Shown: piece after piece, positions 6,095 through 63,370 of the stretch | Position numbering within the stretch: the first letter of the stretch is position 1 | Layout of the letters: each line of letters starts with the position of its first letter | Sequence record: KF620435 | DNA: 64,000 nt | From: Shigella phage pSb-1 | Strand: one strand, 5' to 3' | Notes under the pieces: generated by a model | What the model was told of the DNA's origin: nothing | The model's database searches: none | What the model saw: the letters and a program-made list of their open reading frames with translations, nothing else | Translations under genes and position numbers: made by a program

Positions 6095-6559
6095 TCAATA
6101 AAGCACTTCCCATTTACCGTCTCCGGCTGAGAATAAGGTAACAAACTTACCTGCTTGTATCGTTTTTGCCGATGATATATTTATGTTTCCACCAGGCTCT
6201 AGAATTAAAGTATTAGCGGTATCTGCTCGCAGCATAACTTTTCTCCCCCGTACATAAGCACCAGAGTTTTGTATGGTTATATTGTTTACGTCTGCCGCTC
6301 CGTTTATTTGAATTATATCTCCAGCTGAGGGTATGCTTAGGGTGGCGCCGGATGCTGACACTCGTGAGTCGTTCATTGGGTCCCATCGGGTTACGTTGTT
6401 AGCAATGATAACCCTTCTACTCTGTGTAAAAATATCATCGGTAATACCAACCGAATTGCAGTTGTTTCCGGTGACAACAACATCATAGCTATTAGGGTCA
6501 ATTTGGATGGCGTACTTCTGACCGCCTCCACCACCTTTAAAGCTACCGTTAGAAACCAC
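6095..6559 (-). CDS. tailspike, C-terminal fragment (frame-broken continuation of 6571-7638)
   Basis: GTG-initiated ORF whose frame is open upstream into the preceding ORF; frames differ by one base. Confidence 0.4.
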   Translation of the reverse strand: MVSNGSFKGGGGGQKYAIQIDPNSYDVVVTGNNCNSVGITDDIFTQSRRVIIANNVTRWDPMNDSRVSASGATLSIPSAGDIIQINGAADVNNITIQNSGAYVRGRKVMLRADTANTLILEPGGNINISSAKTIQAGKFVTLFSAGDGKWEVLY

Positions 6560-6570
6560 TATGCCTTTAC

Positions 6571-7638
6571 TTAATCCGGTGAACGCATATCCACCAGTAC
6601 CTTGTGGACCAATACTTCAGCTTGCAAATCAGCTGGCGATTTACCTTTTAGATTTCCATGAGATATGAAACCGCTTAACGTGAACTCTTCACACGCATTA
6701 ATTTCAAAGCCTAACCACCCATTAGAGTGCGATATATCACCATTTGAACTTGAACTACGGCAGTCCCCAAAATCGAAACCAACACCAGTGTTGTTATACG
6801 ACACATTGCCCGTCGACGTTATAAACGTGCCATTATAAAGCATTCCCTGGTGTGACGTTGTTGTGCCGTTGTTATAGCTTCTGTTGTTTGAAACTATTGA
6901 GTGAGACGTCTGGCAAACAATACCGTTTTGACCGTTGTTATGAGACTTGCACTCGGAGATCAATACCTGGTCAGCTACCGGTGTCGACGAGTTAGTGATG
7001 AACTGAATAGTAATTCCGTTTCCGCCGTTATCATGCGCATGAACTTTCGATATAGTGACTGGCGAGGTAGTAAACGTAGCGTTAGATAGCACAAGCCCGT
7101 CAGAATACGCGGATTGAATTTCGGTGTCCTTTATAGTTTCACCGCGAACATTTCTCAGGTAGATACCATAACCAGAGCGAGTGCCGTCAACTAAACAGTT
7201 AGCTACCGTGTTACCACCGCCGACTGGGGTATCGCGTATTGTTATGCTGTGGCCTCCCGAAGCCTTTGATACTACACGGTCCAGCACAACACCTGTGCGA
7301 CCATTAATCATAATGTTATTGGCAGCTGAAGAACCGGACGTTCTTGTTCCATCTATAGTTACATTTACAATCCTTACGGAGTTAGTATTGACTTGTATTA
7401 AGTCTTCAGTTGTATCACTTTTGCGAGAAATGAACCCAGGACCAAACACATCGCATGTAACACTGATGGTTGTTACTTTATATTCAATATTTGGATTTAG
7501 TTTTACAAAAAAACCATTTGTAGTCGCATAGTCTATTGCTGTCTGCAATACGTCCTGATCTGATAATGATGACCGTCTAAAAATCTCAGGATCAACGCCT
7601 GACATAAAATAGAACCTTGGGATTATTTCACTTCGCAA
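6571..7638 (-). CDS. tailspike / tail fibre with right-handed parallel beta-helix repeats
   Basis: repeated [11 protein letters not shown] / [11 protein letters not shown] / [10 protein letters not shown] type motifs typical of pectate-lyase-like beta-helix. Confidence 0.5.
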
Positions 7639-7751
7639 TGAAGCATCACCAACACTAACCCACTTACCTAACCCAGTACCCCCAGCACTTTCAGGAGTTG
7701 AACCGGAAGAAACGATTTTAGGTAACTCACCCTCCCAGCGATACTTACCTC

Positions 7752-8111
7752 CTATATGATAAGTAGTTCATTTTTAGCATTAAGGGTAGCACCTGTATCA
7801 AATGATCCAGGTAATGTAACGTATTCTTCTCGAGATACGGCTAACTCCCCAAGGTCTACAGAACCAGCTGAATGTACAAGTACAGCATTAGCACCAAGAC
7901 TAACAGCAGTAGTACCTGGGGCAATACCAGCAGGTAGTGAATAGGATCTTTGCGTTTCTTTGTCATAAATGACTTTATACCCACCTAAATCTACGCCAAC
8001 TGAGAAGTAAACAACCTCAGACTGTTTAACACCAAACCTACGGGCAATGGCTTGTTTATTGGTAAGAATACCAGTAGAGCCTTTACCACCTTGTGAGAAC
8101 ATTTCGTTCAT
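7752..8111 (-). CDS. tailspike N-terminal fragment (frame-linked to 6571-7638)
   Basis: 119-aa ORF; downstream ORF frame open across the junction with a 1-nt offset. Confidence 0.35.
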
Positions 8112-8479: not shown

Positions 8480-9341
8480 ACCAACTTAGAATAGGGGATG
8501 AGTATGGGGAACCTGTAGCACTTGGAGTAGTAGTATAAGAGGGAGCCGATGCTCTTCCTTCCTGCAAAACACCATCCCTGTATCTACGAATTGCCCCACC
8601 GATACCAAGTTTTACATCAAGATAATTACCAATAGTACATACTGATTGTGGAACACCTTTAGAAGAACCATTCCAATAATTACTAATATCGATTTCTACA
8701 ACATTATCCGAACCAGTGACATTAGCAAGTCGGTACTTCTGAGTCCTGAAACGACCACATAGCTTAACAATAGCCCCGGTAGTACCCTTCACTACAGCAA
8801 CATAGTTAGTATTATCAGTAGTATCATCGTAAGTACTAAGGTAGGCATCAACTACCCCACCATCAACGTTGATGTATTCTACCGTAGCGTATTCTGCACC
8901 TAACGTACCTGTAACATTAGAATTGATAAATGTATAAGAAGCTAACGTAGCATGGTCTACAGCAGCCATAGCAAAGTTTGAGTAGTCTACGCCGTTCAAA
9001 TAAAAACCAGAACCACCCGGTGAATTAGCGTAGTACCCATCAAACAGTAGACTGGTAGCGGATTGTGCATCTGCAATAGGTACTCCTTCAGCATTTGTAC
9101 GTGTACCATCATAGAAGCAAGAGTGGGAAATAGTATCATTGCCACGAATGTCTTTGTGTGTTCCACGCCATGCATTCTTACACCAGATATCATATAAACA
9201 TCCACGGAAATTTATATTCTCTGTGCTGTAATTAGTAGCACTTGGGATGTAAATACCAACTGGACGGTCACCAATGGGAGCCTCGTTACACCAAATATCT
9301 ATGTTCTTAATTTGGAAGTAACGCACGGTCTCAGTGGCCAT
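8472..9341 (-). CDS. tail fibre/appendage protein, C-terminal fragment (frame-linked to 9428-11062)
   Basis: frame open upstream to 9467; junction at C5 homopolymer near 9436-9440. Confidence 0.4.
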   Translation of the reverse strand: MATETVRYFQIKNIDIWCNEAPIGDRPVGIYIPSATNYSTENINFRGCLYDIWCKNAWRGTHKDIRGNDTISHSCFYDGTRTNAEGVPIADAQSATSLLFDGYYANSPGGSGFYLNGVDYSNFAMAAVDHATLASYTFINSNVTGTLGAEYATVEYINVDGGVVDAYLSTYDDTTDNTNYVAVVKGTTGAIVKLCGRFRTQKYRLANVTGSDNVVEIDISNYWNGSSKGVPQSVCTIGNYLDVKLGIGGAIRRYRDGVLQEGRASAPSYTTTPSATGSPYSSPILSWYG

Positions 9342-9427
9342 GAATACGCAGTTAATGTTAGCAGGAGCATACCCACCAAAAACAGGTATTAAAGAAGTAA
9401 TGCCTGATTTAGTGGATGTTCTTTTTG

Positions 9428-11062
9428 CTACACGACCCCCTGATAAATCAATTTTAAAGTGGGAACCTTAAGTAGTATGGGTGCATCAATCACAAATCTC
9501 TTACTTGAGTCTGCGGAAAAGATTCGGTTGAGGGAGTTAAACATTCTCTGGAATGCATCGGAAGAATCAGCAATACCTGTTGTGTCATCCCCGGTATAAG
9601 AGATTGCACCAAAATCTTCTACAGTAGCATTATTGGTATCTACCCGTTCCCAATACCAGTTTGAATTTACTGTCGCAATCACCCCACCATCATCGTCTGG
9701 TACTTCAGACATACCTGTAGTAGAACGAGCAATAAATTCACCACCACCAGTATCACTATTATCATAGTACCCAGACAAAAGGACACGTGCACCAGCTGAA
9801 GGTGGAACCAAAGTTCTTAGAGCAGCGAATGACTGCACACGTCCGATATTGGTAAAGCCAAGAGGAGAATTTAAACTATTTTCTAAAGTCTCCAAAGCAG
9901 ACAACGCTTCACTAGGCATTGGCAATAGGTCAACTGTGATATTCCCTGGTGAGTAAGTTAACTGACCGTTGGATACAGAATTGATATAAACGTTAGTAGG
10001 TAGAGTAGGAAGACCATAAATCTTCTGCCCTACCACATCATATATGACCTTCATACCATTCAAATACTGAGTGGTATTCGTACTCAGAATAACATCATTC
10101 TCATGTACGTTAGCAGAACGAGCTACTTCCTGAACAGTACGGTCAGACATAATGAGCGTAGTGGATTCACCACCAATCTGAATAATCAGACGGTCATTAG
10201 TAGCTAATGGCTCAGTTAATAGGATACGTTGGTTAGCAGCATCAACCGCATAAGACTTGTCTGCTAAACCTGCATAATAACGTTCGCCATTCTTATAGAT
10301 AGCCGGTACAGATTCAAATGTGTAAGGAATAGCAATTACTTGCTCACCACCTGAAGCATACCCACCGTTGTACAACCAGTTGATCTGAACCCAGTCAGAT
10401 ACATTAGGATTATCAGGAACTGCTGGAGTACCAGTCAGGAACAGGTGTACTTCATCACCTGGTTCTAATGGTTGAGCCAGAGTAACGGTTAGTGTAGATG
10501 CATCGTAAGTAAAACCATAGCCAACTAAGTTGGTATAGCCATCAATTACAATCATCGGTACACCAACCGTACCAGCAGGCACTGGGATAGTGGTTTCACC
10601 ACCGATAGCAGAACCATTATTATATGAGTATGGAATGTATGGAGGTGATGCTTTACCTTCGCCGTCATCTCCACCACTATCTGAATTAGAAGTGGCAACC
10701 AGAATCCAGGAACCAGTAGCGGAAGGGTCATCTGGAATTACACCTGTACGGTCACCTTCTACATACAGATAATCTGTAACAACTCTTTTATTGGTATTGT
10801 CAAAACCATACAGTCGTACATAAGATGCACTGGTAGGTATGGCCTTCAGTTCAGTTTCTGATTGAACACCTAACACCATTCCATATTTATTTAAGAAATC
10901 ATAAATGAGTTTGAGGTTACCTAGGTTGCAGTACACAGTACGAACCACATGGTAAGCATTACCAAGTAATGCATCTACCATTGGGTCATTGGAACTGTTC
11001 TGGCAGTAAGGATTGGTCCAATCCTGCTTTGCATCAAAGGGGGTATGTGCGTTCATCGCCAT
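9428..11062 (-). CDS. tail fibre/appendage protein, N-terminal part
   Basis: 544-aa ORF, Gly/Ser/Thr/Asn-rich, position in tail cluster. Confidence 0.45.
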   Translation of the reverse strand: MAMNAHTPFDAKQDWTNPYCQNSSNDPMVDALLGNAYHVVRTVYCNLGNLKLIYDFLNKYGMVLGVQSETELKAIPTSASYVRLYGFDNTNKRVVTDYLYVEGDRTGVIPDDPSATGSWILVATSNSDSGGDDGEGKASPPYIPYSYNNGSAIGGETTIPVPAGTVGVPMIVIDGYTNLVGYGFTYDASTLTVTLAQPLEPGDEVHLFLTGTPAVPDNPNVSDWVQINWLYNGGYASGGEQVIAIPYTFESVPAIYKNGERYYAGLADKSYAVDAANQRILLTEPLATNDRLIIQIGGESTTLIMSDRTVQEVARSANVHENDVILSTNTTQYLNGMKVIYDVVGQKIYGLPTLPTNVYINSVSNGQLTYSPGNITVDLLPMPSEALSALETLENSLNSPLGFTNIGRVQSFAALRTLVPPSAGARVLLSGYYDNSDTGGGEFIARSTTGMSEVPDDDGGVIATVNSNWYWERVDTNNATVEDFGAISYTGDDTTGIADSSDAFQRMFNSLNRIFSADSSKRFVIDAPILLKVPTLKLIYQGVV

Positions 11063-11241: not shown

Positions 11242-11252
11242 TAGCGTGTCTG

Positions 11253-11762
11253 CTAAGTCAACTTCCTGTTCTTCATCACCCGTAAGTACAGGTGCTTAGC
11301 TTGATAAGTTACGTTAAGTGCCTCGAAGTGTCGAGGTCGCATACACTGAATAGTATCAGGCCGTGGAGTGAAGATAGCATGAGGGTCTGAATCGTCGTTC
11401 AGTCTACGTCGATTCCCTGAGTTATCAAACACATTTAAGATTTTAATAACATCATCCCGGAAAGGTTTCATGAACCCATCCATGATATATGGATATTGAA
11501 TCTCAAGTGTGGGCTTAGTAAATCTGGAGTAGGCATACTTAGATTGAAGAGGATAATCAGTACGACCTTCCTTCATTTCCACAATACAACTATTAGTTCT
11601 AAGGGGGAAACGACTATGTAATCGTACCAGCCCCTCATTAATAGCAGCTAGTATCTCAGGCTTACTATCTGGTTCAATATCTAATCTGTCATCAGTGACT
11701 GCACCAGTACCTTTCAAGGTACTTAGTGCCAAGCCACGATATACTTCCGATAATTTTTGCAT
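11253..11762 (-). CDS. hypothetical structural protein
   Basis: 169-aa ORF directly downstream of terminase large subunit. Confidence 0.35.
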   Translation of the reverse strand: MQKLSEVYRGLALSTLKGTGAVTDDRLDIEPDSKPEILAAINEGLVRLHSRFPLRTNSCIVEMKEGRTDYPLQSKYAYSRFTKPTLEIQYPYIMDGFMKPFRDDVIKILNVFDNSGNRRRLNDDSDPHAIFTPRPDTIQCMRPRHFEALNVTYQAKHLYLRVMKNRKLT

Positions 11763-13045: not shown

Positions 13046-13378
13046 CTACCTTACCCAGCTTGGTAAGTGCCCAAACACTGCCAGGAACAAAGTAAAGTAT
13101 TCCATGAACACAGCAGTCTTACCTGCACCACGGAAACACAGATTAACTACATACTGGTTCGGACTAATCATCTTATCCAACATCTTCAGGTGAACTGGTG
13201 GTGTTTTGTTGGATTCGCCCTCTTTGCCATTAACCAACTTAATAAAGTTGGCAAAGGTAAGAGCAAACTGACTAGGAACATAGTTAGATGAATTAAGGTG
13301 GGAGTAATCCACCTGGTCTAGCCATTCATCCAGTTCCTGTTTAATTAACTCAGACATCTGTAATGTCCTCATCTGCAC
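13046..13378 (-). CDS. terminase large subunit, N-terminal ATPase fragment
   Basis: Walker A CFRGAGKT; frame offset to downstream ORF consistent with one missing base. Confidence 0.65.
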   Translation of the reverse strand: MQMRTLQMSELIKQELDEWLDQVDYSHLNSSNYVPSQFALTFANFIKLVNGKEGESNKTPPVHLKMLDKMISPNQYVVNLCFRGAGKTAVFMEYFTLFLAVFGHLPSWVR

Positions 13379-14589: not shown

Positions 14590-14649
14590 GTAGGCTAACG
14601 ATACACATGTATCTAGGGTGATGAACTGACCCGTGATTGAAAACGGTAA

Positions 14650-14685
14650 GGGTAGAGTCGAGAGGCTCTACCCCATTTCTTTTTC
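14650..14685 (+). terminator. hairpin plus T-tract (early terminator/attenuator)
   Basis: GGGTAGAG...CTCTACCC stem followed by CATTTCTTTTT, just upstream of RBS of 14701 ORF. Confidence 0.45.
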
Positions 14686-16713: not shown

Positions 16714-17036
16714 ATGACTACTCAAGCTACTGTACGTATGACCGCAGGAACTTTACTTGGTACTGTTAACTCAGCTGCTACTACTGTTGCAGATACATTC
16801 GGTACAGCAACTAAAGCAGTAGGTATGCTTAATTCATATGTAAGTACTATGCAGAGAAACAAGCCATTCGTACTAAATTAGAAATGCATACATTCGTTAA
16901 TAAACTGGCAGAGGAAACAGCTATGACTGAGACTCTGCGTAAGAAAAGTATTGAGGAATTCTGCAAGGATTCAGAAAACGCTCGTATCTATAACGCAGAA
17001 TATTCCAAAGTAATTGACATCCTGACTAAAGACTAA
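16714..17036 (+). CDS. small hypothetical protein, frame-broken (two ORFs 16714-16881 and 16884-17036)
   Basis: GGAG RBS; second ORF frame continues first with 1-nt offset. Confidence 0.35.
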
Positions 17037-17668: not shown

Positions 17669-18048
17669 ATGTCTATTCAAAAATTCACTTTCGGTCAATC
17701 TAACGCTGCTGCTACCACTGCTAAAGCTGACAAACCAAAAGCTCAGTTCTGGCTGAACATTGGTTATGTAGCTAATGAAGCTCTGATGATGAGAAATTCA
17801 TCTCTCTGCCTACTGGTATTCCACTGGATACTCAGGAACCACTGCCTACTAATAGCAGCAATGCTGACTTCCGTGCTATGCGTTGTGCACAGAATGACTT
17901 GCTGGAACAGTTAATCGCATATGCTCAGAACCTGGAACCAGGTGAAGAAGGTATCATTAACCTGCAAGTTCAACTTCGTCGTGTGAAAGCAGAGGCTGCT
18001 GACATCCCAGCAGACGAGAATAAATATGCTCGTAAACTGACTTTCTAA
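17669..18048 (+). CDS. hypothetical protein, frame-broken near 17790
   Basis: ATG with GGAG RBS; C-terminal two thirds continue in frame offset by one base; ends before terminator. Confidence 0.4.
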
Positions 18049-22912: not shown

Positions 22913-23707
22913 ATGCAACTGTTAACCGCTCGTGAATACCTGAAAGTAGATATTGCTAATAACTATGGCTTAGATAAAAAGACATGGGATGAACGTATTA
23001 GCTGGTTCGATGAGAATGAAGCTAACCTGCTTAATCTGGTAGATGAAGCTGAAGATTCTGCTCTGTTCTTTGCTGGTGTAAATGCATGGAAAGATATGAA
23101 AGCCGGTAAGCCTATTGGTTATGCTGTAGCTCTGGATGCTACATCATCTGGCTTACAGTTACTGGCCTGCCTGACTGGTGACCGTTCTGCTGCTGAACTG
23201 TGTAACGTAGTTAACTACATGGGAGAGAATGGTAAGCCATTACGTCGTGATGCTTATACAGTCATCTACCACAAGATGCTGGACATCCTTGGTGAAGCAT
23301 CTCGTATTAAACGTAGTGACACTAAGCAGGCAGTTATGACTGCATTCTACGGTTCAGAAGCCAAGCCTAAAGAAGTATTCGGTGAAGGTATTCGTCTCAA
23401 GACTTTTGAAAATGTAATGGAAACTGTTGCTAGTGGTCCTTGGGCACTGAACAAGTTCTTACTGCAATGTGGTAACCCGGATGCTAACCGTTACATATGG
23501 GTACTGCCTGACAACTTCCACGCTGTCATTAAGGTCATGGTTCCAGAAGTACAAACTGTTAACTTCTTAGGTAAGCCATTCGACATCACTCGTATGGTTC
23601 AGGGCACTGAAGAGAAGACTCGTATGCTCTCTGCTAACATCACCCACTCTATTGATGGATGGTGGTACGTGAGATGCTGCGTCGTTGTAACTTCGACCGT
23701 GACTTAG
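22913..23707 (+). CDS. RNA polymerase II large subunit, N-terminal part (frame-broken)
   Basis: T7-RNAP motif A (LDATSSGLQLLACL) and motif B (RSDTKQAVMTAFYGS). Confidence 0.8.
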   Translation: MQLLTAREYLKVDIANNYGLDKKTWDERISWFDENEANLLNLVDEAEDSALFFAGVNAWKDMKAGKPIGYAVALDATSSGLQLLACLTGDRSAAELCNVVNYMGENGKPLRRDAYTVIYHKMLDILGEASRIKRSDTKQAVMTAFYGSEAKPKEVFGEGIRLKTFENVMETVASGPWALNKFLLQCGNPDANRYIWVLPDNFHAVIKVMVPEVQTVNFLGKPFDITRMVQGTEEKTRMLSANITHSIDGWWYVRCCVVVTSTVT

Positions 23708-28042: not shown

Positions 28043-28546
28043 ATGAACCAATTTCCTCAGCACACACTTAGTGATGAACAACTCATGCGTGAGTACGACC
28101 GTATTCAGGCTAAGGCGTTTCTTGGACGCAGTGCAGCGTTCTTTGGTTCATTACTGTGTAGTCTTAAGTTCTCATGGAATCGTGAGAATTGTCCCACTGC
28201 ATGTACTGATGGGATAGAACTCCATTTCAACCCAGACTTCTTTATCTGGATGTGTCCAGATGCAAGAGAAACAGTGTTAATGCACGAACTCTGGCATGTG
28301 GCATATCTACATGACATCCGTCGTGGAAGCCGTGACCCAGAAGTCTGGAACCAGGCATGTGACCACTTCATTAACCTTCAGTTAGAAGAAGATGGTTACA
28401 AGTTCACTGGCATTGATAAAGGCATTTGCAAAGACCCTCAATATAAAGGATGGGTCGAAGAAGACATCTACGATGACCTGATGAAGAACCTCAGAAAAGG
28501 CAGAAGCCGTCTGGGGGTGCTGGAGCTGGTCTTGCTGGCGACATGA
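28043..28546 (+). CDS. putative metallopeptidase-like domain protein (DUF2201_N-like), possibly fused to the downstream VWA ORF
   Basis: HELWH (HExxH) motif; G5 homopolymer at 28513-28517 lies before the VWA ORF. Confidence 0.4.
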   Translation: MNQFPQHTLSDEQLMREYDRIQAKAFLGRSAAFFGSLLCSLKFSWNRENCPTACTDGIELHFNPDFFIWMCPDARETVLMHELWHVAYLHDIRRGSRDPEVWNQACDHFINLQLEEDGYKFTGIDKGICKDPQYKGWVEEDIYDDLMKNLRKGRSRLGVLELVLLAT

Positions 28547-28601
28547 AATCCCCACTTCGGGGCAGTCCCAGGGTGCTGTTGTCAACAACGTAGTACGTGC
28601 A

Positions 28602-39467: not shown

Positions 39468-39648
39468 CTGCGACCACGAACAAGGCTGCTGAAGTTCTGG
39501 CTCAGGCTACTGGACGCCCAACGTCTACCTATCACTCCTTCCAGGGCTGATTGTTAAGAATGACTTTAAAACTGGTGAGGCTAATGTCGTACCTTCTAAG
39601 TCATTCAATATTAAGAAGAACAAAATCATCTTCGTAGATGAAGCATCC

Positions 39649-43980: not shown

Positions 43981-43999
43981 TGCTAAGCTCTCCGGTGGA

Positions 44000-44263: not shown

Positions 44264-45113
44264 TGTCTCACTGGCTCTGGCTGTATGGCTATTGCATGAC
44301 GAATATGACTATGTAGATAACCCTAAGTACCTGTCTGTTACTACATTGCTTAAGCCCATTAAGCAAATCGTCATGAAGCATCGTGTAGATTTAAGTGACC
44401 AGTCAATTGATGTTATGGATTTCGTCTCCACATCAATGGGTACTGGTTTACATGATTCTATCGAGAAAGCCTGGAAGCTAGGTCATAAGACTGCATTGAA
44501 GAAGTTGGGGTATCCTCAACGAGTAATTGATGCAGTAGTCATTAACCCAACCGAAGCAGACTTTGATACTAACCCTGACCTTATCCCAATCTACATTGAA
44601 CAGCGTGGAACCAGGATAGTTAAGGGTTGGACTATCGGTGGTAAGTTCGACATCGTAACAGAAGGTCTGCTGCAGGACTTTAAGTCTACCTCCACCTATT
44701 CCTGGGTTGCTGGTTCCCGTGATGATGAACACAAGATGCAAGGTAGCTTGTACCGTTGGATTCACAACGACATCATTACTGAGGATGTAATTCGTATTAA
44801 CTACATCTTCACTGACTTCATGAAGCATATGGCTAATAGCAATCCGAACTATCCTGCTAATCGTATTATGCATAAGGATATTCCGTTGCTATCTATCGAG
44901 AAGACTGAACGTTGGGTAGAAGAGAAGATTCACCTCATTGAGAAGTACTGGAATGCACCTGAAGAGAAAATTCCTGAATGTACTGACGAGGAGTTGTGGC
45001 GAACAGAGCCACAGTTCAAGTACTTCTCTGATGCTTCTAAGGTAGATGTACCTGGAGCCAGAAGTACCAAAAACTTTGATGATATGGCATCTGCTCGTAT
45101 CTTCATGGACTGA
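44241..45113 (+). CDS. PD-(D/E)xK family nuclease (putative exonuclease)
   Basis: GKFDIVTEGLLQDFKST resembles D...(D/E)xK core. Confidence 0.4.
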   Translation: MKITNNHDVSLALAVWLLHDEYDYVDNPKYLSVTTLLKPIKQIVMKHRVDLSDQSIDVMDFVSTSMGTGLHDSIEKAWKLGHKTALKKLGYPQRVIDAVVINPTEADFDTNPDLIPIYIEQRGTRIVKGWTIGGKFDIVTEGLLQDFKSTSTYSWVAGSRDDEHKMQGSLYRWIHNDIITEDVIRINYIFTDFMKHMANSNPNYPANRIMHKDIPLLSIEKTERWVEEKIHLIEKYWNAPEEKIPECTDEELWRTEPQFKYFSDASKVDVPGARSTKNFDDMASARIFMD

Positions 45114-48220: not shown

Positions 48221-48541
48221 ATGTCATTGTTCAGTAATCTGAAAGAAAAAACCAAAAACGTTGAAGCTGTTAAAGACTCCCTGGGTGGTGGTGGCTTCGG
48301 TGCAAAAGAATCCGATATCTACACCGGTACTGTAAAAGTAGCTTACGTAGGTAAAGCTGACTCTGGTGCAGACTGGATGCAGTTAATCATTGAAGACCTG
48401 AAAAACTCAGATGGCGTACCTGCCGGTGAGTTCCGTGCTCAGGTGTACTTCACTTCTGGTAATGCTAAAGGCAATAAGCGACTTACGAGAAGAACGGTAA
48501 AGAGTACTTCCTGCCTGGCTACACTGTCATTAATGACATGA
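48221..48541 (+). CDS. single-stranded DNA-binding protein, N-terminal fragment (tentative)
   Basis: position after recombination ATPase; joins next ORF with 1-nt offset. Confidence 0.35.
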   Translation: MSLFSNLKEKTKNVEAVKDSLGGGGFGAKESDIYTGTVKVAYVGKADSGADWMQLIIEDLKNSDGVPAGEFRAQVYFTSGNAKGNKRLTRRTVKSTSCLATLSLMT

Positions 48542-50421: not shown

Positions 50422-50821
50422 TATCGTGAAGGGTTCTGTTAGAATCCTTTGAGATAGGAACTCCTATCATAACCTTTCTTAACTTAATCTTTGCCGTATG
50501 GCACTGACGCTAGGGGTGGCCCCCCATCCGTCAGTCAGACTATTTTAAGAATGGGTTATCACAGAAAATGTAAAGCAACATTCGGGTTAATCAATGGCCT
50601 CTCCCTATAGAGGCCATTTCTGAATCTTAGGCTATATCCCAAAGGTTAGTATCTTTGGGATAAGGCTTCAGATCCCTTATCAACTAACGCTCATGTTGAG
50701 CACAACATTAACTAATAATGTCGGATAGTTCATTACGCTATTCATTCAGCATCGAGATGTTAGGTCTTACATGTAATATAGGGTATAAAGGGAGGATTCG
50801 TCCCCTCCTCCTATTATAATG

Positions 50822-52563: not shown

Positions 52564-55500
52564 TCAGGGTATGGGCACGTAAGCCTTGTCCGAAACCGAA
52601 TGAGTAACCGAGGTTGCCTGTGCAGCAATACTAAAGATGTTGTCCTGAATAGGCAAACCAACGTTACCAAACATGGTAGGAGTTGGAGCCAACATAGCCA
52701 TAGCAGCATGTACTGGGTTATTACGAATCATGGACACTGCAACTTTTGCAGAACGAATCTTAAAGTTGTAGAACCACATTAAACCAACACTTTCCATATA
52801 CCCACGGAATCGACCAGGTAAACGGTCATAGTTAATGAACTCTTCCGTTACACGTCCCAGTGCTTCTTCACGAGTCTTACCTTTACGCTGGGTCAATTCA
52901 TCATAGATGATTGCTTTAGCGATAAAGTCAGAGTACTCAACCGTTTTCTGGATACCCTGGAATAGAGCAGTATCCTTAGTGAAAAGTGCATAACGACCTG
53001 CGTTACGTACAGACTTAGGCAGCTTATCAGCTAGCTTATCCATGTATTCGTGAAGTTTACCTTCAGTAATCAGGATGTCATCACGACCAATACCAGCATC
53101 TGCAATTGAAGAGAACTCACCAGCTTCTAACAGAGGCCAGATACTCAAACGCTTATGGCTATCCGTAATGGACTGAATCTCAGCCTTAAGTTTACGAATC
53201 TGGTTCGGGTTAGTAGCTGCACGTAATTCTGCTTCTGCATCTACCTGACGAAGTCGAGATTTCAGGTACTGGTTAATCTCAGCAGTCTTCTGTGGAATGC
53301 TCTTAGCAATGTTCTTAACAGGTACACCACGAGCAACCATCTGGTAAAGGTTAGCCAAGAAGTTAACAGCAGGTACAATCACTGACTTAACTACAATCAG
53401 GGTCTTAGCTTCTTTAACTAAGTTTTGAACCAGATTCTCACCACCCATTACATACTTATAGGCACGGTTGCCAAATACACCCAACATAGCTTTCTTGAAG
53501 GTATCCAGTGTTTCTGGGGACCAACGAGAATTACCAGACCAGGCATCCCCAACAGAAGCTGCACGATAACCCAGAGCATCATTCAGCATGTCACGACGTA
53601 CCCACAACTCACCTGGGCCAAACAGACTTTCTGCTTTCTGACGTGTTTCACTGTTCATCAGCTTAAGAGCATCAGCAGTCACTGGGTCCAGTTTGGAACC
53701 AAGAAGGTTCACGTACTGGGACTTATTAGAAGCAGACATCTTAATGTCGTTCTCATACATGCTATACAGGTTCTCAATTAGCATATCGTTGAAACGCTGA
53801 GCCTTAGCCTCTTCTACCTGACGACCACGCCATACACCGATTGCACGGGCAAGATGGTTTTCACCCTCGATGTGCTTCAGCATATTAGGGTCAATGGATT
53901 GCTCGTAAGCAACCACATTACCATTGGCATCATATACAGGCAGGAGTGGTTCATTACCACGTTCACCACGAGCCAGTGCTTTAGTGATACGGTCTACGGA
54001 AGGCTTGTCAGTGATACGACCAGCTACCATGGTTCCCATAGTAAAGCCTGTACCAAGGTCTACACCACCAGCAGTATTGCGAACGTTCTGTAAGATACCT
54101 TGGGAGAACGGAGCCTGTGCCTGTACTGGTGCAAAGTAGTAGCTACGTGCCGGTCCACGATTAGCAGAGCTACCTTGATAAGTGCCCAGTCGTACATAGG
54201 ATTTTTCAATCAAATCAGCAAACTGACTATCTTCAGCAACAATCAGGTTAACACCTTGTTTGTTCTCACCGGGAATATACCCTTTGTACTGGTTCAGGGT
54301 TGCACGGCTATCAGACTTGGCTTTAGCCATTTCATCTTTACGCTGACCAACCAGGTAAGAAGTAGCAAAGTCCATGCCTTCAATTTCTGTCTGAGCCAGT
54401 GAAGATAACATCTCACGGTCAGTCTTATTCATTGCTTCCAGTGCATACAGGGTAATGAGTTTATCCAGTTGAGCTACGTCTACAGTAGAACGTGTAGTCT
54501 TACGTTCACCCAGCAAGCGAGAAATTGCAGTAGCATTACGCAGCAGGTTATTACCGACTGTACCGTTAATCATGTACTGAGCCAGTTGCTTAGATTTACG
54601 GCTAATCAGGGGCCAGTTACGCCCTGCTTGTTTCTGCAAATCTGCTTCCAGTTTATTAACTTCACGGTCAACAATCTTCTGGTCAGTCAGCAAGTCACGG
54701 ATTTCAGCCAGAGACATAGTATCACGCAGGACAGCTAAGTCAGTTTTACCCATGCCAGTATGCATTGCTTTCCACTCTTCATTAGTCAGTTTACGACTGA
54801 ACTTAGATGCGATAGTGGTAGGCAAGTGTTCACGGAACTGTTGACGGTCAGCTTGTACCTGTGCACGAACTGCCTTAATCAAATCGTATACAGAAGCATT
54901 GCTCTTAGTACGTCCAATTATGTCATTAACCAGGTCATGGAAAGGTTGCCATACTTTACCCTGGTTCATTGCAGCCATAACACCTTCCGCTACGATTGAA
55001 CCATTCTTCTCTGTAGCAATAGCAGCTATCAGTTGTGCAGCATGAGCAGCACCTTTAACCAACGGGTTTTTGGTATTAGCTGCAACTTCACGAGCACCTT
55101 CCAATGCACGGGTAGACAGTACATCAATAGAGTCCACCAGATACTGGTTAGCACGGTCAATAGCATTACCGGTAGGAGTAGCAACGGAATCATAGAAGGA
55201 CTCTGCATTAAGACTGGTCTGCATGATTGTCTGAGCCAGTGCATCCATACCTTCCTGTACGTTAGTGGCTTTAGTATCACCTGCTACACGAGCATTCAGA
55301 CTAGCCATTGCAGCAGTACCGATGTTAGTCAGCATTGCATCAACGGTATTACCTGATTTCTTATCTGCTTTCATAACAGGAATGTCAGCCAGTACTTTAC
55401 GTACCTCTTCACTTACCATTGCCAGGCCAACAAAGGTAGGCAGTAAGGAAGAACGACCCTGTGCATCAAACTCAATGTTGTTAGCACCCATGATGGTATC

Positions 55501-56250: not shown

Positions 56251-59200
56251 CAGGTCTTCAATATTCTGAACGGCTTCATTAGGAGTGCTTCATAATGAGC
56301 CAGTACAGATTCAAAGGTAGAAGCATGTACCAATTCATGAACCAGAGTCTCTAAGGAAGGGGTAACTAAGTAGATGGTCTTATCTTCAAAGTTAGTCCAG
56401 CCATATGCATTACCAGCTTCAGCAGCTTCAATATCTTCCGGTGCTGGACGAGTAATATTCTTCTCAATAGCGTAGGCATCCAGTTGAGAAGGTGTACCGT
56501 AAACAACCTTGTAGTCTTTAGCAGCAAGGGATTTCTGTATTTCTTTCAATACTGCTTGCTGTTCAGGAGACATCTCTTTAGCCAGCTTAGTAATAGCAGT
56601 ATTAGATAGCAGACGTACACCGGACTTCAGTACACGACCTACTTGTTCCATTGCTGGTACTTCTGCCACCGGCACTTCTTTCACTGGTTCTGCTTTAACT
56701 GATTCCTCTTTCGTACCTCGTACTGCATCACGACGTTTGTTTAATTCAGCATCAAACAGTTCGTTCAGCTTAGCTACTTGCTGGTCTACAGTCAGACCTT
56801 CAAGAGAGATTTTACCGTTGTTCACATAAGGAGCACCAACAGCAGCCATCTGGTCAACTGTGACTTGTACCTGGTCCATTACCTTGTGACGAATATCCAC
56901 ACCCAGAGCAATGTTACGCAGGTTACGCTCAATCAATGCAATACCAGAATCTTTAATCATAGAAATTTTATAATCTCTATCACCATCTACTCTGGCAATA
57001 TGAGTACGTTGCTCAAAGTCTAAAGCAGACTTCGCAATAGCATCTATTGCTGAATCGGACAACTTATTTAAATCAACATTCTTAGCAAACTTAGAAAAAG
57101 ACTCATATACATTCTTGATAGGGTTGCCCTGCCAGGAAGTATATACAGCCTCGTTAGCTTTACGGCTTGCATCAGTAATGTCATTAATACCAATGTTCAT
57201 ACCATCAAAGATTTTAAGGGTATTCTTTGGAGCACCTTTCATAGTAGAAAGAGTCTGCATCATCATGCCATCACCAGTACCGATGGTCATAAATGGAATA
57301 CCTGCAACCCCTGCCTGTGAAGGAGCATAGATGCTCATTGGCACACGCATACGGTCATCTAAGTTGGTAGCCAGTACTTGGTTAGCAACATCAGTGTTCT
57401 CACTGCCAGCAATGTAGAAAGTCTGTGAACCAGTCTCAATCATTGGAGCCAGTGGAGATAAGCTATTCTGGATTTCATTCAGTTCTTTCTGTGTTAAGAA
57501 ATCACCTTTCTTCCATGTTGGGTCTTTTTCTTTTTCTGCCAGTTTAGCCTGTACAGCCTGTTGGAACATATCCTGCAATACCAGCGACTGAATCTGAGTA
57601 GCCTTCTGTAAGTTTTCAGTAGAGTGCATCAACCCTTCACCAACAGTAAATCGGATACCTTGTCTCATTGGCTCAACGAAGAAATGAAGCATATTCTCTT
57701 GTAAGTTCTTAAGAGCATCACCAGATATGGTAAACTCCTGAGGATCTAACTTACCAGTCAGAACACCATCTACTTCCTTAATGAATAACTTACCTTTACG
57801 CTTAGCTGGAATATTACCAGTCAATGCTTTCATAGAAGTAAGGAAGGTATCCAGCATAGCCTGAGCATCAGCTTCAGAAGCAGCCTCCTTACCAAACATA
57901 GCCATAGCTGGGGAAATGTTAGGGTCAACAGCACGGGCTTTCAGAACGTCGCTTAAGCGTTCATAGATGGTATCAGTAATTGCACTTACCATTTTGCTAG
58001 CAATACCACGAGCACCAGAACCATAGATGGTAATGGTAAGTGGGTTTTTAGCGATACCACGTTTCAGGTCCAGAGTACCATCTTCATTCAGGTTAAAATC
58101 TTTGATGAACAAATCCATTAACTTCTGGAGATGGTTCATCTGGTTTATAACAGGAATATTTTTACTATAAGCATTACGTAGTTCATTCAGATAGAATTGC
58201 AGACTATTGGTAGATGCTTCATACAGGTCAACACTGTCATCCTGTGTATGATGCTCGTTCATAGTCTTACCAGCTTTACCGAAGAACAAACCACCTTTAG
58301 CAGTATTCTTAATCCAGTTAGGAGTGAACTTACCACCAGTCATTAATACCATTGCGTTGATTGGCCCGTTGGTTACACCATCGGCTTCAACGTACAGTGG
58401 AGTATTAAAGTTGGCACGATCATCACTGTTAAGGTAACGGGCATATTCCATAAGAGCCATGAGAGCTACGAATGATTTATCATTCCCCAGAGATGTTCTC
58501 AGGATATCCACTGCATCAGTAGGTAAGTAGCCAGACTTATCAAACTCAACCATCATATCTACAGCAGGTTTCAGCTTACCCTCCAGAGCTTTGGTAAGTT
58601 CTTCTGACATAGCTTCACGGGTCATTTTATGTACTTTGATACCCAATGCCTGAGCCAGTCCAAGCTGGAAGCCAGAGAAATCTTCATTGTTCTGGTTCGA
58701 TAAATCCAGAGTAGCTTTAGTAGGTAAGATAGCCTCACGAACCAGCTTAGCTGATTGAGGGTTATATTTACCTAACATCTGCATACGACCAACACGGGTC
58801 ATATTGTATGCATAGTGAATAGGTACAGAAGAAATGTCTTCACTCTGTGCTCTTACCTGCTCAATAACAGAGAACAGTTGGTTGTAAGAATCCTCTACTG
58901 AACGATTCTTACCTTCCAGGGATTTAGCATGGTTCTTATTAAGTAAATCCTTATCCAGAGTACCTGCACCCATCAGTTCGAGGATACGGTCTTTACCTAA
59001 CGCCTCATAGAACTGAACCATTGGGGTATGCACAAAGAACTCTGTAGCCTGTTCTGCTTTAAGAGCAGCTTTTTGTTCTGGGGTATTACGGACAGCAGGG
59101 TTACGTAACTGAGTATGAGCTACAGGAGGAATATCATCACCGAGATACAGTTTCTCTACTGGTTCTACAAGAACAGCTTCCTCGATAGCAGTAGGGAATT

Positions 59201-60611: not shown

Positions 60612-60670
60612 TGGTTCATTGGTCTGTTGGGATTGAGCAGCATCAAGATTGCCCTGACGGAACTCTTTAA

Positions 60671-63370
60671 CTACCTGGCAGCAGGCTTGTCCAGACGTGA
60701 ATCCAATGGGGTAACTTTCACATGAGAAACATTAAGCTCCGGGTAAGCCGTAGCAAGTGCGTTAGCAATATCAGCTACGGTCTTGGCTTCCAGTCCTACT
60801 TGCTGGGCAAACTTAACCGACTTGGTATCATACGGATTGACACCGAGGCCAGTACGACTACGTACCCATTCACGCGAAGGAGTAAGAGCCTGATAATGGA
60901 CAGACTTATTCTTATCCGCATTCCCAGAAATCAAATGCTCATTCAACGCTCCGACCTTATTCTGCATGTGCTGGGCGAACTTCATAAAGTCGTCGAGATA
61001 AGCGGAAGCCAGGTCGAAGTTACCAGAGTTGTACGCAGAACGAATGCGTTTAGCATGTTGCAACGCAGAGTACTGGCCTTCATTAGAACGAGATTCGTCG
61101 GTTTTAATCTGTTTACTAACAATGTCCTGAGGACGTAAGCCTAGTTCTTCTGCTTTAGCATCAAATTCTCGTGCTCCTTGCAATAGAGCAGCAGCAGATT
61201 GCAGGGCAGCACGCTGACGATTCCCCAGTGTAATCTTACCTTCACTTGCATGTTTCAGAACCATGTTCACTGAATCTGCATCCAGTACTTCTGGAGACAT
61301 ATCAGCAGCCATAGCAATGTTGTTTGCCTGGGCTTGGTTAGCTTCTTCAGTAGCTTTCAATTTACCTGCTTCAGCCTGTTCCTGAATCATGGAATGGATG
61401 GCACGGAATGCACGAAGTACCTTCGGTGTATTCTGAACGTTAGCCATCAGGCCAGAGAACTGGTCTACGATTGCAGCAGCAGGAGAGCCTTGTTCCAGAT
61501 TAGCCAATGCACCCGGGTCACGGTTGATGAAGCTATCCATAGACATGATATTGTCATACATCTGGATTGCAGCTTCCATTTGAACGTTAGGGTCTTCAGC
61601 AGTATTAACCAAGTCAGCCATCTTCTGAATAGCTTCAACACGGTTAGTGGAACCAGAAACAGCTTCACGGATTACTGGGCTAGCTTGTTCCAGTTCTACT
61701 GGATCAAACTTCATTACCTGAGTTAGGTCAGCAGCATACTGAGTAGCAGCAGCTTTCTCTTCTGGAGAAATGTCCATTGCATCTACTGCTTCCTGAACAG
61801 TTGCTTGGGCCTGCTCTGCCTGAGCAGTAGCTTCCTGTGCAGCAGCATTAACCGTAGCATCAGATACAGGGGATGCTTGTTCATTACGCTTAGCAACTTC
61901 TTCCCCACGTTGAACCAGAATGTTAGTAATAGGAGAAGCTGCTTTTGCTAGTGCTTTACCAGCCAGAGAAGCACCAGCCAGGGTAGTACGTACAGCAGGA
62001 CCAACGGCAGCACCAGCAGCTTTAACAGTTGCACCAGGAGCTTGAGCAACTCCAGCAGAACCGAAGCCATACAATGCACCAAGCCCAGTTTGTTCACCCA
62101 CACCTTTAAGCAGATCACGTTTAGCATCTACATTACCCTGAATTGCCTTGTTCTGTGCAAGCTGGCTAGTACCAGACTGGATACCTTCTTCTACGGTTTC
62201 ACGAAGCATGTTAGAACCAGCACCAGCCAGTGAACCTACCTTAAGTGGGTTAAGTTCAAACTTAGATACCAGTGGACCAGTAAGAGCAGCAACTGGAGCA
62301 GTTAAGCCAGCAGCAGTGATACCTGTTTCAGATGCAGTCTGACGACGTGCTTCTTCAGGAGATAAACCATCTTTAATATGCTGTTGGTATACAGGAGATT
62401 TAGCAGCTAGTTCACTGAATGGCATTTCCATAATTTCATTGGCAGTCTGTTGGTATGCACCACCAGCTTCCATACCACCGATTGCTATAGCAGGAGCAGC
62501 AACACGACCAGCAGACTGTGCAATACGTGCAGGACGTGAACCTAACTCAGCAGCTAGGGTAATACCCTTAACAGCTTTATCCCCACCTACCATTACTTTA
62601 CCAAGTGCAGATACACCACGGATAAGTGGACCACCAGTAAACAGGGAACCAACACCTTCAGCCAGACCATCTGTAGCAGCCATACCATTGGACAAAGTGT
62701 TAGCAACAGAATCATAAGCATCACGACCAATACGAGATAAGGAAGCAACGAGTTCACTTTCTCCTTTATCAATATCCTGCTTATACTGTTTCTCATTTTC
62801 CTGTGCAGATATTACGTTCTGGTTCTGTACTACATTACGTCGTGCATTAAGTGCATCAGATTGTAAGTTGTGTACACCTTTGTTCAACCAATCAAGACCG
62901 GAAGCAATGGATGCCCCGGCATTATCATTGACCAAGCCTGTGCCAAGAGCAGCAATGCCCCCAAGGGTATTAGCAACACCAAGACCAACACCAGAAAGGG
63001 TATCACCAAGTGCTTCACCATATGTACGACTCTTAGTTAAATCACGACGAACAGCATTAGCTGCATTGACACGAGCATTGAGGATATCCATCCCTTGCTC
63101 ATTGCCATATTTGTTTATGATTTCAAGAGGAGAGGCATTAGTAAAATCTGCCTGAATAGAACCTGGGTCAAATGCACCAGCACCTAAATCACCGGCACGG
63201 CCTGCCTGTAATTGGTAGGCGTTCTGTGGGGTTAGTTGGAAAGGGCTTTGCCCTTGTTCAGCTTGTTTCCGAGAGGTTGCAGTAGAGACATCGACTTGCT
63301 TAGCAGTAGTGATGCTGTCTGCGAAACCTGCCAGACGGTCAAATGTTGACATAGCATGATTCCTGTTCAA
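60671..63370 (-). CDS. virion RNA polymerase, N-terminal region (frame-broken from core)
   Basis: 899-aa Gly/Ala-rich ORF ending in TAG; core ORF frame is open upstream past this stop with 1-nt offset. Confidence 0.5.
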   Translation of the reverse strand: MNRNHAMSTFDRLAGFADSITTAKQVDVSTATSRKQAEQGQSPFQLTPQNAYQLQAGRAGDLGAGAFDPGSIQADFTNASPLEIINKYGNEQGMDILNARVNAANAVRRDLTKSRTYGEALGDTLSGVGLGVANTLGGIAALGTGLVNDNAGASIASGLDWLNKGVHNLQSDALNARRNVVQNQNVISAQENEKQYKQDIDKGESELVASLSRIGRDAYDSVANTLSNGMAATDGLAEGVGSLFTGGPLIRGVSALGKVMVGGDKAVKGITLAAELGSRPARIAQSAGRVAAPAIAIGGMEAGGAYQQTANEIMEMPFSELAAKSPVYQQHIKDGLSPEEARRQTASETGITAAGLTAPVAALTGPLVSKFELNPLKVGSLAGAGSNMLRETVEEGIQSGTSQLAQNKAIQGNVDAKRDLLKGVGEQTGLGALYGFGSAGVAQAPGATVKAAGAAVGPAVRTTLAGASLAGKALAKAASPITNILVQRGEEVAKRNEQASPVSDATVNAAAQEATAQAEQAQATVQEAVDAMDISPEEKAAATQYAADLTQVMKFDPVELEQASPVIREAVSGSTNRVEAIQKMADLVNTAEDPNVQMEAAIQMYDNIMSMDSFINRDPGALANLEQGSPAAAIVDQFSGLMANVQNTPKVLRAFRAIHSMIQEQAEAGKLKATEEANQAQANNIAMAADMSPEVLDADSVNMVLKHASEGKITLGNRQRAALQSAAALLQGAREFDAKAEELGLRPQDIVSKQIKTDESRSNEGQYSALQHAKRIRSAYNSGNFDLASAYLDDFMKFAQHMQNKVGALNEHLISGNADKNKSVHYQALTPSREWVRSRTGLGVNPYDTKSVKFAQQVGLEAKTVADIANALATAYPELNVSHVKVTPLDSRLDKPAAR

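What the first reader, a model, noticed from the sequence alone, without database searches (positions are those of the whole stretch)
6095..60700. At least twelve essential-gene frame breaks, all consistent with single missing bases
Terminase large subunit (13040-13048), tailspike pieces (6559-6573, 7638-7754, 9341-9470), 11241-11255, two small early genes (about 16880 and 17790), RNAP II large subunit (23659), Dda-like helicase (twice, 39455-39465 and 39540-39550), SSB (about 48470-48540) and vRNAP (twice) are each split between adjacent frames. Every junction has the downstream frame one position behind the upstream frame, as a one-base deletion would give, and several sit at short homopolymers. 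A strictly lytic phage cannot carry this many broken essential genes, so systematic deletion-type sequence error is most likely. Pervasive programmed -1 frameshifting would be extraordinary.
Basis: seen in the sequence. Interest (0 to 1): 0.6.

Follow-up and report, generated by a model that had tools for sequence, protein, structure and literature searches.

The report
Sequencing-error frameshifts in phage pSb-1 genome
The many broken essential genes in this N4-like phage genome (Shigella phage pSb-1) are real in the deposited sequence, but they are almost certainly missing-base sequencing or assembly errors in short G/C runs and not biology.

Summary
The window is a G7C-like N4-type phage, identified by exact protein matches as Shigella phage pSb-1. 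I found 23 small indels that only this sequence carries. Twenty-one break 15 genes: 19 one-base deletions, one two-base deletion and one one-base insertion. Two more one-base deletions lie in non-coding DNA. At every site all alignable relatives keep the base. Putting it back restores a full-length, stop-free homolog at 94-100% amino-acid identity (80% for the divergent tailspike N-terminus). Of the 21 deletions whose lost base can be assessed, 19 remove G or C from a G/C run of 2-5, and the per-run rate rises from 2-base to 3-base runs. At most two of 7,858 A/T runs are affected. The four relatives carry 0-6 private indels each, all A/T; those I placed against gene coordinates are intergenic. 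Downstream of the breaks, 81% of the window's own substitutions still fall at third codon positions of the restored frame. No junction has a usable slippery site. pSb-1 is an isolated, plaque-forming lytic phage. The best explanation is systematic deletion-type consensus error. Pervasive recoding is effectively excluded. Interest is low, apart from database curation, because GenBank and RefSeq annotate the fragments as separate proteins.

The parts
259..260 (-). One-base deletion (CCC to CC on the + strand) breaking gp57
   Evidence: All 4 relatives keep the base. Frame goes -2 to -1. Repair gives a single HSP.
6601..6602 (-). One-base deletion (CCC to CC) splitting the gp63.1-like tailspike into ORFs 6571-7638 and 6095-6559
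   Evidence: Three metagenome contigs (L018-L020), 91% nt identical, keep the base. Homologs P0001-P0004 read ...[16 protein letters not shown]... straight across the junction.
7750..7762 (-). One-base deletion in the tailspike N-terminal domain; exact base unresolved
   Evidence: HK2, ZQ1, SP154 and AV101 each have one more base in this interval. Frame goes -3 to -2.
8485..8486 (-). Two-base deletion (CCC to C) in tail protein gp66
   Evidence: HK2 is the only DNA comparator. Frame goes -3 to -1. The repaired protein is 96% identical over its full length to P0114.
9467..9468 (-). One-base deletion (CCC to CC) in gp66
   Evidence: Compared with HK2 only. Repair gives a single HSP over residues 1-965.
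11292..11293 (-). One-base deletion (GGG to GG) in virion protein gp67
   Evidence: 4 of 4 relatives keep the base.
13057..13058 (-). One-base deletion (GG to G) in the terminase large subunit
   Evidence: 4 of 4 relatives keep the base. The fragment is annotated as psb1_0026, 423 aa, against 529-536 aa for the other listed members of its 501-member cluster.
14649..14650 (.). Non-coding one-base deletion (GGGG to GGG) in the left arm of a stem-loop
   Evidence: 4 of 4 relatives keep the base. In relatives the arms GGGGTAGAG / CTCTACCCC pair perfectly; the window loses one pair.
16850..16851 (+). One-base deletion (GG to G) in early gene gp1
   Evidence: 4 of 4 relatives keep the base.
17780..17781 (+). 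One-base deletion (GG to G) in gp2 (annotated RNAP1 subunit A)
   Evidence: 4 of 4 relatives keep the base.
23658..23659 (+). One-base deletion (GGG to GG) in RNAP2 gp16
   Evidence: 4 of 4 relatives keep the base. Repair gives 99.5% identity over residues 1-405.
28488..28489 (+). One-base deletion (CCC to CC) in gp25
   Evidence: 4 of 4 relatives keep the base.
28549..28550 (+). One-base deletion (CCCCC to CCCC) in gp25
   Evidence: 4 of 4 relatives keep the base.
32045..32046 (+). One-base deletion (CCC to CC) in thymidylate synthase ThyX gp30
   Evidence: 4 of 4 relatives keep the base.
39460..39461 (+). One-base deletion in Dda-like helicase gp37 (relatives have T or C here)
   Evidence: 4 of 4 relatives keep the base.
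39546..39547 (+). One-base deletion in Dda-like helicase gp37 (relatives have G or A after GGG)
   Evidence: 4 of 4 relatives keep the base. The fragment is annotated as psb1_0084, 299 aa, against 436 aa in relatives.
43981..43982 (+). One-base deletion (ATGG to ATG) just after the start codon of gp41
   Evidence: 4 relatives keep the base in the alignment. It counted as 3 of 4 in the strict private-indel test.
45109..45109 (+). One-base insertion (A) truncating exonuclease gp42 by 36 residues
   Evidence: 4 of 4 relatives lack the A. The 36 C-terminal residues are 100% conserved in the shifted frame.
48478..48479 (+). One-base deletion (CC to C) in the ssDNA-binding protein gp45
   Evidence: 4 of 4 relatives and 5 of 5 IMG/VR contigs keep the base.
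50806..50807 (.). Non-coding one-base deletion (CCC to CC)
   Evidence: St11Ph5 and G7C, the two relatives that align closely here, keep the base.
52618..52619 (-). One-base deletion (CCC to CC) near the 3' end of the virion RNA polymerase gene
   Evidence: 4 relatives keep the base. Frame goes -2 to -1.
56288..56289 (-). One-base deletion (CC to C) in the virion RNA polymerase gene
   Evidence: 4 of 4 relatives keep the base. Frame goes -3 to -2.
60676..60677 (-). One-base deletion (GGG to GG) in the virion RNA polymerase gene
   Evidence: 4 of 4 relatives keep the base. With all three vRNAP sites repaired, one HSP covers residues 1-3595 at 97.6% identity.

Best explanation
The window is the deposited genome of Shigella phage pSb-1, a viable, lytic, G7C-like N4-type phage. 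The frame breaks are errors of the consensus sequence and not features of the phage DNA. A base-calling or assembly process under-called the length of short G or C runs about once per 3 kb, and once added an A. Gene callers then split the affected genes into fragments, which GenBank and RefSeq annotate as separate proteins. Shown here: the indels exist, are private to this record, sit in G/C runs, hit coding and non-coding DNA alike, and are fully reversed by restoring one base. Inferred: that they arose during sequencing or assembly. Which platform produced them is unknown.
For: (1) At all 23 sites every alignable relative keeps the base: four complete genomes at most sites, five IMG/VR contigs at the SSB site, three metagenome contigs at 6601, and HK2 alone at 8485 and 9467. 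(2) Restoring the base gives single, stop-free, full-length alignments at 94-100% identity for all broken genes; the tailspike N-terminus, which is divergent, aligns at 80%. (3) Nineteen of the 21 deletions whose lost base can be assessed are G or C in G/C runs. The 18 counted give P about 2e-7 against base composition. Per-run rates are 0.15% for 2-mers, 1.5% for 3-mers and 0.8-4% for 4- and 5-mers, the last two resting on one event each (6601, a 3-mer, was found after this count). No unambiguous A/T-run contraction was seen among 7,858 A/T runs. (4) Two of the 23 indels lie in non-coding DNA, which by my rough estimate is about 10% of the window; one removes a base pair from a stem-loop that pairs perfectly in relatives. 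(5) Relatives tested the same way have 0-6 private non-3n indels, all A/T; those I placed against gene coordinates are intergenic. (6) The window's private substitutions are 287 synonymous to 61 non-synonymous in the repaired frame. Downstream of the first break they are 109 of 135 at third codon positions, the same share as upstream, 46 of 57, so there is no sign of decay. (7) Seven of ten window ORFs match pSb-1 proteins exactly. pSb-1 is an isolate that forms clear plaques (PMC4789750; PMC6853846). (8) Precedent exists: PacBio-only assemblies show G/C deletions plus A/T insertions that truncate essential genes despite high coverage (PMC8574707), and long-read assemblies are dominated by false deletions in homopolymers of 2-8 nt (PMC12007338). 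The same laboratory sequenced a sister phage with Sanger plus Ion PGM.
Against: No raw reads and no independent assembly of this lineage could be found, so the error is inferred and not observed. The near-exclusive G/C bias, with short runs of 2-3 affected while longer A/T runs are spared, is not the textbook profile of flow-based or nanopore homopolymer error. The platform used for pSb-1 could not be established because the paper is not held. Sites 8485 and 9467 rest on one DNA comparator (HK2).
Confidence: 0.94

Rival explanations
1. Pervasive programmed recoding. The genes are truly interrupted in the DNA, and full-length proteins are made by -1 ribosomal frameshifting, or by transcriptional slippage that adds a base, at each site.
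For: Every listed one-base deletion would be compensated by a -1 shift. One canonical heptamer, T_TTA_AAA, lies about 12-18 nt downstream of the gp66 site at 9467.
Against: None of the 18 junctions has an X_XXY_YYZ heptamer at the point where homology changes frame. By my rough calculation the single nearby heptamer is about what chance predicts (roughly 0.7 expected). The runs are G/C of 2-5 nt, too short for slippage by known RNA polymerases (established knowledge). The same kind of deletion occurs in non-coding DNA (14649, 50806). A two-base deletion and a one-base insertion also occur. No relative shares any of the breaks. At gp41 the deletion falls right after the start codon.
Confidence: 0.01
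2. The deletions are real mutations in a defective or decaying genome. For example, a non-viable molecule or clone was sequenced, or errors were introduced by amplification before sequencing.
For: Indel mutation by polymerase slippage also favours homopolymer runs. This cannot be distinguished from sequencing error without reads.
Against: At least 21 inactivating lesions lie in terminase, vRNAP, helicase, SSB, RNAP2 and tail proteins. That is incompatible with the plaque-forming, propagated isolate. There is no excess of non-synonymous or position-random substitutions, which a mutated or decaying template would show. If the lesions came from amplification or cloning, the outcome is still an artefact of the record.
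Confidence: 0.04
3. The genes are genuinely split into separately translated subunits, as a lineage-specific gene fission.
For: GenBank and RefSeq annotate the pieces as separate proteins. Real interruptions do exist in this family, for example the gp24 ATPase split by an intron-like HNH element.
Against: Most downstream pieces begin in the middle of conserved domains, and their homology starts before any start codon; for example the tailspike reads GTGGYAFTG continuously in homologs. The breaks are one-base frame changes and not insertions of start and stop signals. Fifteen independent fissions in one lineage, with none in hundreds of relatives, is implausible.
Confidence: 0.01

Closest known systems
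Homopolymer-length consensus errors in uncorrected assemblies (for example PacBio-only assemblies described for ARAMIS, PMC8574707; long-read assemblies described for Kastor, PMC12007338)
   Same: Single-base deletions of G or C in short runs, plus an occasional A insertion. Essential genes are truncated at several points. The errors are private to one record and are reversed by comparison with relatives. The rate rises from 2-base to 3-base runs.
   Different: The platform for this record is unknown. The same laboratory used Sanger plus Ion PGM for a sister phage. The bias here is more extreme than the nanopore profile in PMC12007338, where A/T runs dominated: no unambiguous A/T-run deletion, and mostly runs of only 2-3.
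Programmed -1 ribosomal frameshifting in phage genes (for example tail assembly chaperone G/GT-type sites, dnaX)
   Same: The downstream reading frame lies one position behind the upstream frame.
   Different: There is no slippery heptamer at the junctions, the arrangement is not conserved in any relative, the breaks occur in many unrelated genes and also in non-coding DNA, and intact single ORFs are the rule in the genus.
Gamaleyavirus (G7C-like N4-type phages: G7C, St11Ph5, ZQ2, HK2)
   Same: Gene order and content match, with 90-95% nucleotide identity over most of the window. After repair, every broken gene is a full-length ortholog.
   Different: The tailspike receptor-binding modules are swapped, as is typical of the genus. 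The record is circularly permuted relative to G7C.

Membership tests
Sequencing or assembly indel artefact (homopolymer under-call) | The indel is private to one record, while all close relatives agree with each other | tested here: met
   All alignable relatives keep the base at all 23 sites: 4 of 4 complete genomes at most sites, 5 of 5 IMG/VR contigs at the SSB site, 3 of 3 metagenome contigs at 6601. Sites 8485 and 9467 have a single comparator.
Sequencing or assembly indel artefact (homopolymer under-call) | The indel changes the length of a homopolymer run, and the rate rises with run length | tested here: met
   19 of 21 assessable deletions are contractions of G/C runs. Rates are 0.15% for runs of 2, 1.5% for runs of 3, and 0.8-4% for runs of 4-5, the last two from one event each.
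Sequencing or assembly indel artefact (homopolymer under-call) | The indels are indifferent to coding status | tested here: met
   2 of 23 indels lie in non-coding DNA, which by my rough estimate is about 10% of the window. One disrupts a stem-loop.
Sequencing or assembly indel artefact (homopolymer under-call) | Reversing the indel restores a full-length conserved ORF, with no decay downstream | tested here: met
   Single stop-free HSPs after repair. 81% of private substitutions downstream of the breaks fall at third codon positions of the restored frame.
Sequencing or assembly indel artefact (homopolymer under-call) | Raw reads or an independent accurate resequencing disagree with the deposited consensus | not testable with these tools
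   No reads are available, and no independent copy of this lineage exists in the viral, metagenome or genome collections.
Programmed -1 ribosomal frameshift | A slippery heptamer X_XXY_YYZ in the upstream frame at the shift point | tested here: not met
   0 of 18 junctions have one at the shift point. One chance heptamer lies downstream of 9467.
Programmed -1 ribosomal frameshift | The two-frame arrangement is conserved among relatives | tested here: not met
   All relatives encode single uninterrupted ORFs.
Programmed -1 ribosomal frameshift | A stimulatory downstream RNA structure | not tested
   Not pursued, because the first two defining features failed.
Transcriptional slippage recoding | A long homopolymeric run (usually A or T, about 7 or more) at the site | tested here: not met
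   The runs are G/C of 2-5 nt. The length requirement comes from established knowledge.
Shigella phage pSb-1 (Gamaleyavirus) | The window's ORF products are identical to the record's annotated proteins | tested here: met
   7 of 10 ORFs match AHB79xxx / YP_009008xxx proteins exactly, on a 71,629-bp contig. The accession KF620435 and the length are given in PMC6853846.

The most novel reading that the evidence does not exclude
The deposited sequence is correct, and pSb-1 really carries about 20 one-base gaps in G/C runs of essential genes. These would be compensated by an unknown high-efficiency recoding mechanism, for example phage-polymerase slippage at short G/C runs or a non-canonical -1 ribosomal shift.
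Probability: 0.01. Interest if true: 0.95.

Novelty: not a real feature. Interest (0 to 1): 0.08.

Why it matters
There is no biological discovery here. The practical value is curation. The pSb-1 record, which is the source of RefSeq YP_009008xxx proteins and UniRef entries, holds at least 21 frame-breaking errors. Pieces of terminase, virion RNA polymerase, helicase, SSB, RNAP2 and tail proteins circulate in databases as separate 'hypothetical proteins'. These fragments distort gene counts, protein clustering, and comparisons of tailspike or host-range genes that use this phage as the Shigella representative of its genus. The exact positions given here allow a reference-guided correction or targeted resequencing. 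The case also serves as a calibration example: many adjacent-frame breaks, private to one record, confined to G/C runs and also present in non-coding DNA, are the signature of a consensus artefact and not of recoding.

Tried and rejected
1. I looked for the source or an independent assembly of the same lineage, to compare the sites directly. Exact-protein look-ups for rIIA, DNA polymerase and P0118 found nothing. A lineage-specific pattern that allowed either C or CC at site 56288 gave zero matches in the metagenome, viral and genome contig collections. 2. A first protein search with only the C-terminal 283 aa of the joined tailspike found nothing. Repeating it with the full 551 aa found 92-93% identical homologs that span the junction. 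3. tblastn of the joined tailspike against the phage collection gave only 25% identical hits ending at the junction. These were suggestive and were superseded. 4. I tested whether the deletions cluster at Dcm (CCWGG) methylation motifs. By my reading of the contexts, four of the sites then known touch such a motif. That is a mild enrichment at most and is not the main determinant (motif counts). 5. I tested whether substitution errors accompany the indels. They do not: the private substitutions look like normal evolution under selection. 6. I tried to read the pSb-1 genome paper for the sequencing platform, but it is not held. 7. I considered that the split of ATPase gp24 was another frameshift. 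It is not: it is an insertion of about 870 bp, shared with phage PW8.
Full report
What the window is. The ORF map shows the layout of an N4-type podophage: giant virion-RNA-polymerase-sized ORFs, RNAP1/RNAP2 genes, rIIA/rIIB, a Dda-like helicase, DNA polymerase and SSB. Megablast against the phage collection finds G7C-like coliphages of the genus Gamaleyavirus at about 90-95% identity over most of the length. The best matches are St11Ph5, HK2, ZQ2 and G7C. No identical record is in that collection. Late in the work an exact-sequence look-up identified the source. Seven of ten window ORFs are identical to GenBank/RefSeq proteins of Shigella phage pSb-1 (AHB79xxx / YP_009008xxx) on a 71,629-bp contig. 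PMC6853846 gives the accession as KF620435 with the same length. pSb-1 is an isolated lytic phage that forms clear plaques on Shigella boydii (PMC4789750; PMC6853846).

Checking the observation. I translated the annotated genes of St11Ph5 and HK2 and aligned them to the window with tblastn. TerL, gp67, gp1, gp2, RNAP2 gp16, Dda (twice), SSB, vRNAP and the two tail proteins are each split between adjacent frames, and the pieces on both sides of each break are typically 95-100% identical to the homolog. vRNAP is broken three times (60676, 56288, 52618). gp57 (259, outside the given range), gp25 (28488 and 28549), ThyX (32045), gp41 (43981, just after its ATG), exonuclease gp42 (45109) and a second site in gp66 (8485) are also broken.

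Base-level anatomy. I listed the short (1-2 nt) gaps between the window and the relatives. I then aligned 61-nt windows around each candidate against four complete genomes: St11Ph5, HK2, G7C and ZQ2. At each coding site the window is the lone outlier and lacks one base that all alignable relatives keep. Two sites are exceptions.

The tailspike gene had no close DNA relative in the phage collection. For the N-terminal junction near 7757, HK2 and three unrelated phages that share the head-binding domain all have one more base. Their DNA, three metagenome contigs 91% identical to the window, places the deletion at 6601, CCC to CC. Two further private one-base deletions lie in non-coding DNA. Site 14649 removes a G from the left arm of a stem-loop whose arms pair perfectly in all four relatives. 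Site 50806 is a CCC-to-CC change.

The total is 23 private indels, 21 of them breaking 15 genes. This is a lower bound, because divergent regions were not searchable in this way.

More than chance. The same private-indel test was applied to each genome against the other four. It gives 16 strictly private isolated non-3n indels for the window and 0, 0, 1 and 6 for ZQ2, HK2, St11Ph5 and G7C. Those of the relatives are all A or T, and the ones I placed against gene coordinates are intergenic or in terminal non-coding DNA. In a separate ORF-based comparison the relatives show 0-4 apparent frame breaks against each other. By my reading of the coordinates none is in an essential gene. At a larger scale, the 90%-identity protein clusters that hold the pSb-1 fragments contain 501 (TerL) and 660 (Dda) members. 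The listed members are full length (529-536 aa and 436 aa), whereas the pSb-1 entries are 423 and 299 aa. The vRNAP fragment of 1,228 aa sits among proteins of 3,735-3,751 aa. At the SSB site, five of five IMG/VR contigs carry the intact CC.

Repair test. I inserted the relatives' base at each deletion site then known (CC at 8485) and removed the extra A at 45109; site 6601 was found later. Re-running tblastn gives one stop-free, full-length HSP for every broken gene. Examples are TerL 1-529 at 99.6%, RNAP2 1-405 at 99.5%, Dda 1-436 at 98.9%, gp66 1-965 at 97.6% and vRNAP 1-3595 at 97.6%. The divergent tailspike N-terminus aligns at 80%.

Signature of the process. Of the 21 deletions whose lost base can be assessed, 19 remove a G or C from a G/C run of 2-5 bases. 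The two ambiguous ones (39460, 39546) could also be read that way. No unambiguous contraction was seen among 7,858 A/T runs of two or more, even though A/T runs outnumber G/C runs (4,890). For the 18 sites counted, the probability that all fall in G/C by base composition is about 2e-7. Per-run rates are 0.15% for runs of 2, 1.5% for runs of 3, and 0.8-4% for runs of 4 and 5, the last two from one event each. Site 6601, a run of 3, was found after this count. Two of the 23 events lie in non-coding DNA, which by my rough estimate is about a tenth of the window. The process is therefore blind to coding. This is the behaviour of a base-specific, run-length-dependent under-call. It is not what selection or a translational mechanism would produce.

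No decay and no substitution noise. In 21 conserved genes read in the repaired frame, substitutions private to the window are 287 synonymous to 61 non-synonymous, with codon positions 53/18/277. That is at least as constrained as in the relatives. Restricting the count to the parts of nine broken genes that lie downstream of their first break gives 18/8/109, so 81% fall at third positions of the restored frame. Upstream the figures are 8/3/46, the same share. The restored frame is therefore the one selection has been acting on through the whole private history of this lineage. The record also shows no excess of random substitutions. The defect is purely one of indels.

Recoding tested. In gene orientation and in the upstream frame, none of 18 junctions has an X_XXY_YYZ heptamer where the homology changes frame. 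One T_TTA_AAA lies 12-18 nt beyond the gp66 site at 9467, and by my rough calculation about 0.7 such heptamers are expected by chance. G/C runs of 2-5 nt are far too short for known transcriptional slippage (established knowledge). The presence of non-coding deletions, a two-base deletion, an insertion and a deletion right after a start codon is also incompatible with a translational explanation.

Mechanism and what remains inferred. The most likely history is that the consensus of the original sequencing project under-called short G/C runs, and the resulting fragments were annotated as separate genes. The literature gives close precedents. PacBio-only assemblies show systematic G/C single-base deletions and A/T insertions in genomes of intermediate GC content, and one example has an essential gene truncated at three points despite 361x coverage (PMC8574707). 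Long-read assemblies are dominated by false deletions in homopolymers of 2-8 nt (PMC12007338). The platform used for pSb-1 could not be established because the paper is not held. The same laboratory sequenced a sister phage by Sanger plus Ion PGM, and flow-based chemistry is also prone to homopolymer under-calls (established knowledge). The strict G/C restriction, with long A/T runs spared, remains unexplained in detail. No reads and no independent copy of this lineage could be found, so the artefact is inferred and not observed. Given the viability of the isolate and the convergent evidence above, I put it at about 0.94.

Verdict. This is not a real biological feature. Its only value is for curating the pSb-1 record and the fragment proteins derived from it.

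Noticed in passing
window 26316-27183 (ORF 26331-26978 +): The gp24 ATPase gene is interrupted by an insertion of about 870 bp and not by a frameshift. Residues 1-67 map to 26115-26315 and residues 68-350 to 27184-28032. The insert carries an HNH homing-endonuclease ORF with NUMOD4, HNH_3 and AP2 domains. Its 3' part gives a sub-threshold match to the group I intron model (RF00028, 26.8 bits against a gathering score of 50, E = 1.6e-4), including a GAUAUAGUC stretch that matches the model consensus. The same arrangement is 98.3% identical in phage PW8, where it is annotated as 'ATPase (x2)' plus HNH. It is probably a mobile group I intron.
   Followed up: partly
window 6062-7743 (tailspike receptor-binding part); L018-L020: The receptor-binding part of the gp63.1-like tailspike is 91% identical at DNA level to tailspike genes on human-gut metagenome contigs. 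Those contigs have a quite different gene set, including tape-measure (TMP_3) and tail-tube (Phage_tube_2) genes, so they are not N4-like. Only the N-terminal Tail_spike_N adaptor differs. This points to recent horizontal exchange of a receptor-binding module between unrelated phage types.
   Followed up: partly
window 8165-9600 (gp66 C-terminal module); L021/L022: The repaired C-terminal 495 aa of gp66 is 96% identical to an 832-aa protein (P0114). That protein sits on metagenome contigs carrying a cluster of several tailspike genes. The module is also 67-71% identical to E. coli (pro)phage head-binding-domain tailspikes. In the phage collection only HK2 shares it.
   Followed up: partly
window 38236-38760 (+) and 22242-22856 (+): Free-standing homing-endonuclease-type ORFs lie between conserved genes. 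An HNH_3 protein sits between gp35 and gp36 and has no counterpart among the St11Ph5 and HK2 proteins tested. An endonuclease sits between RNAP1B and RNAP2 and is shared with HK2 at 95.6%.
   Followed up: no
window 51472-51556 (+): A single tRNA gene (Rfam RF00005, 54 bits) lies in the roughly 2-kb non-coding stretch upstream of the vRNAP gene. St11Ph5 annotates a tRNA-Ala in its corresponding region.
   Followed up: no
window 16484-16714: The sequence runs without a break from gp71.x-type genes into gp1. In G7C this is where the physical genome ends and the 1,160-bp terminal repeats lie. The deposited pSb-1 sequence therefore appears to be circularly permuted with the terminal repeat collapsed, which would be another sign of an unfinished assembly.
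   Followed up: no
window 56286-56289: At the middle vRNAP break the window reads GTG-C where all four relatives read GTACC. A private A-to-G substitution sits directly next to the missing C. This could be a compound miscall and not two separate events.
   Followed up: no
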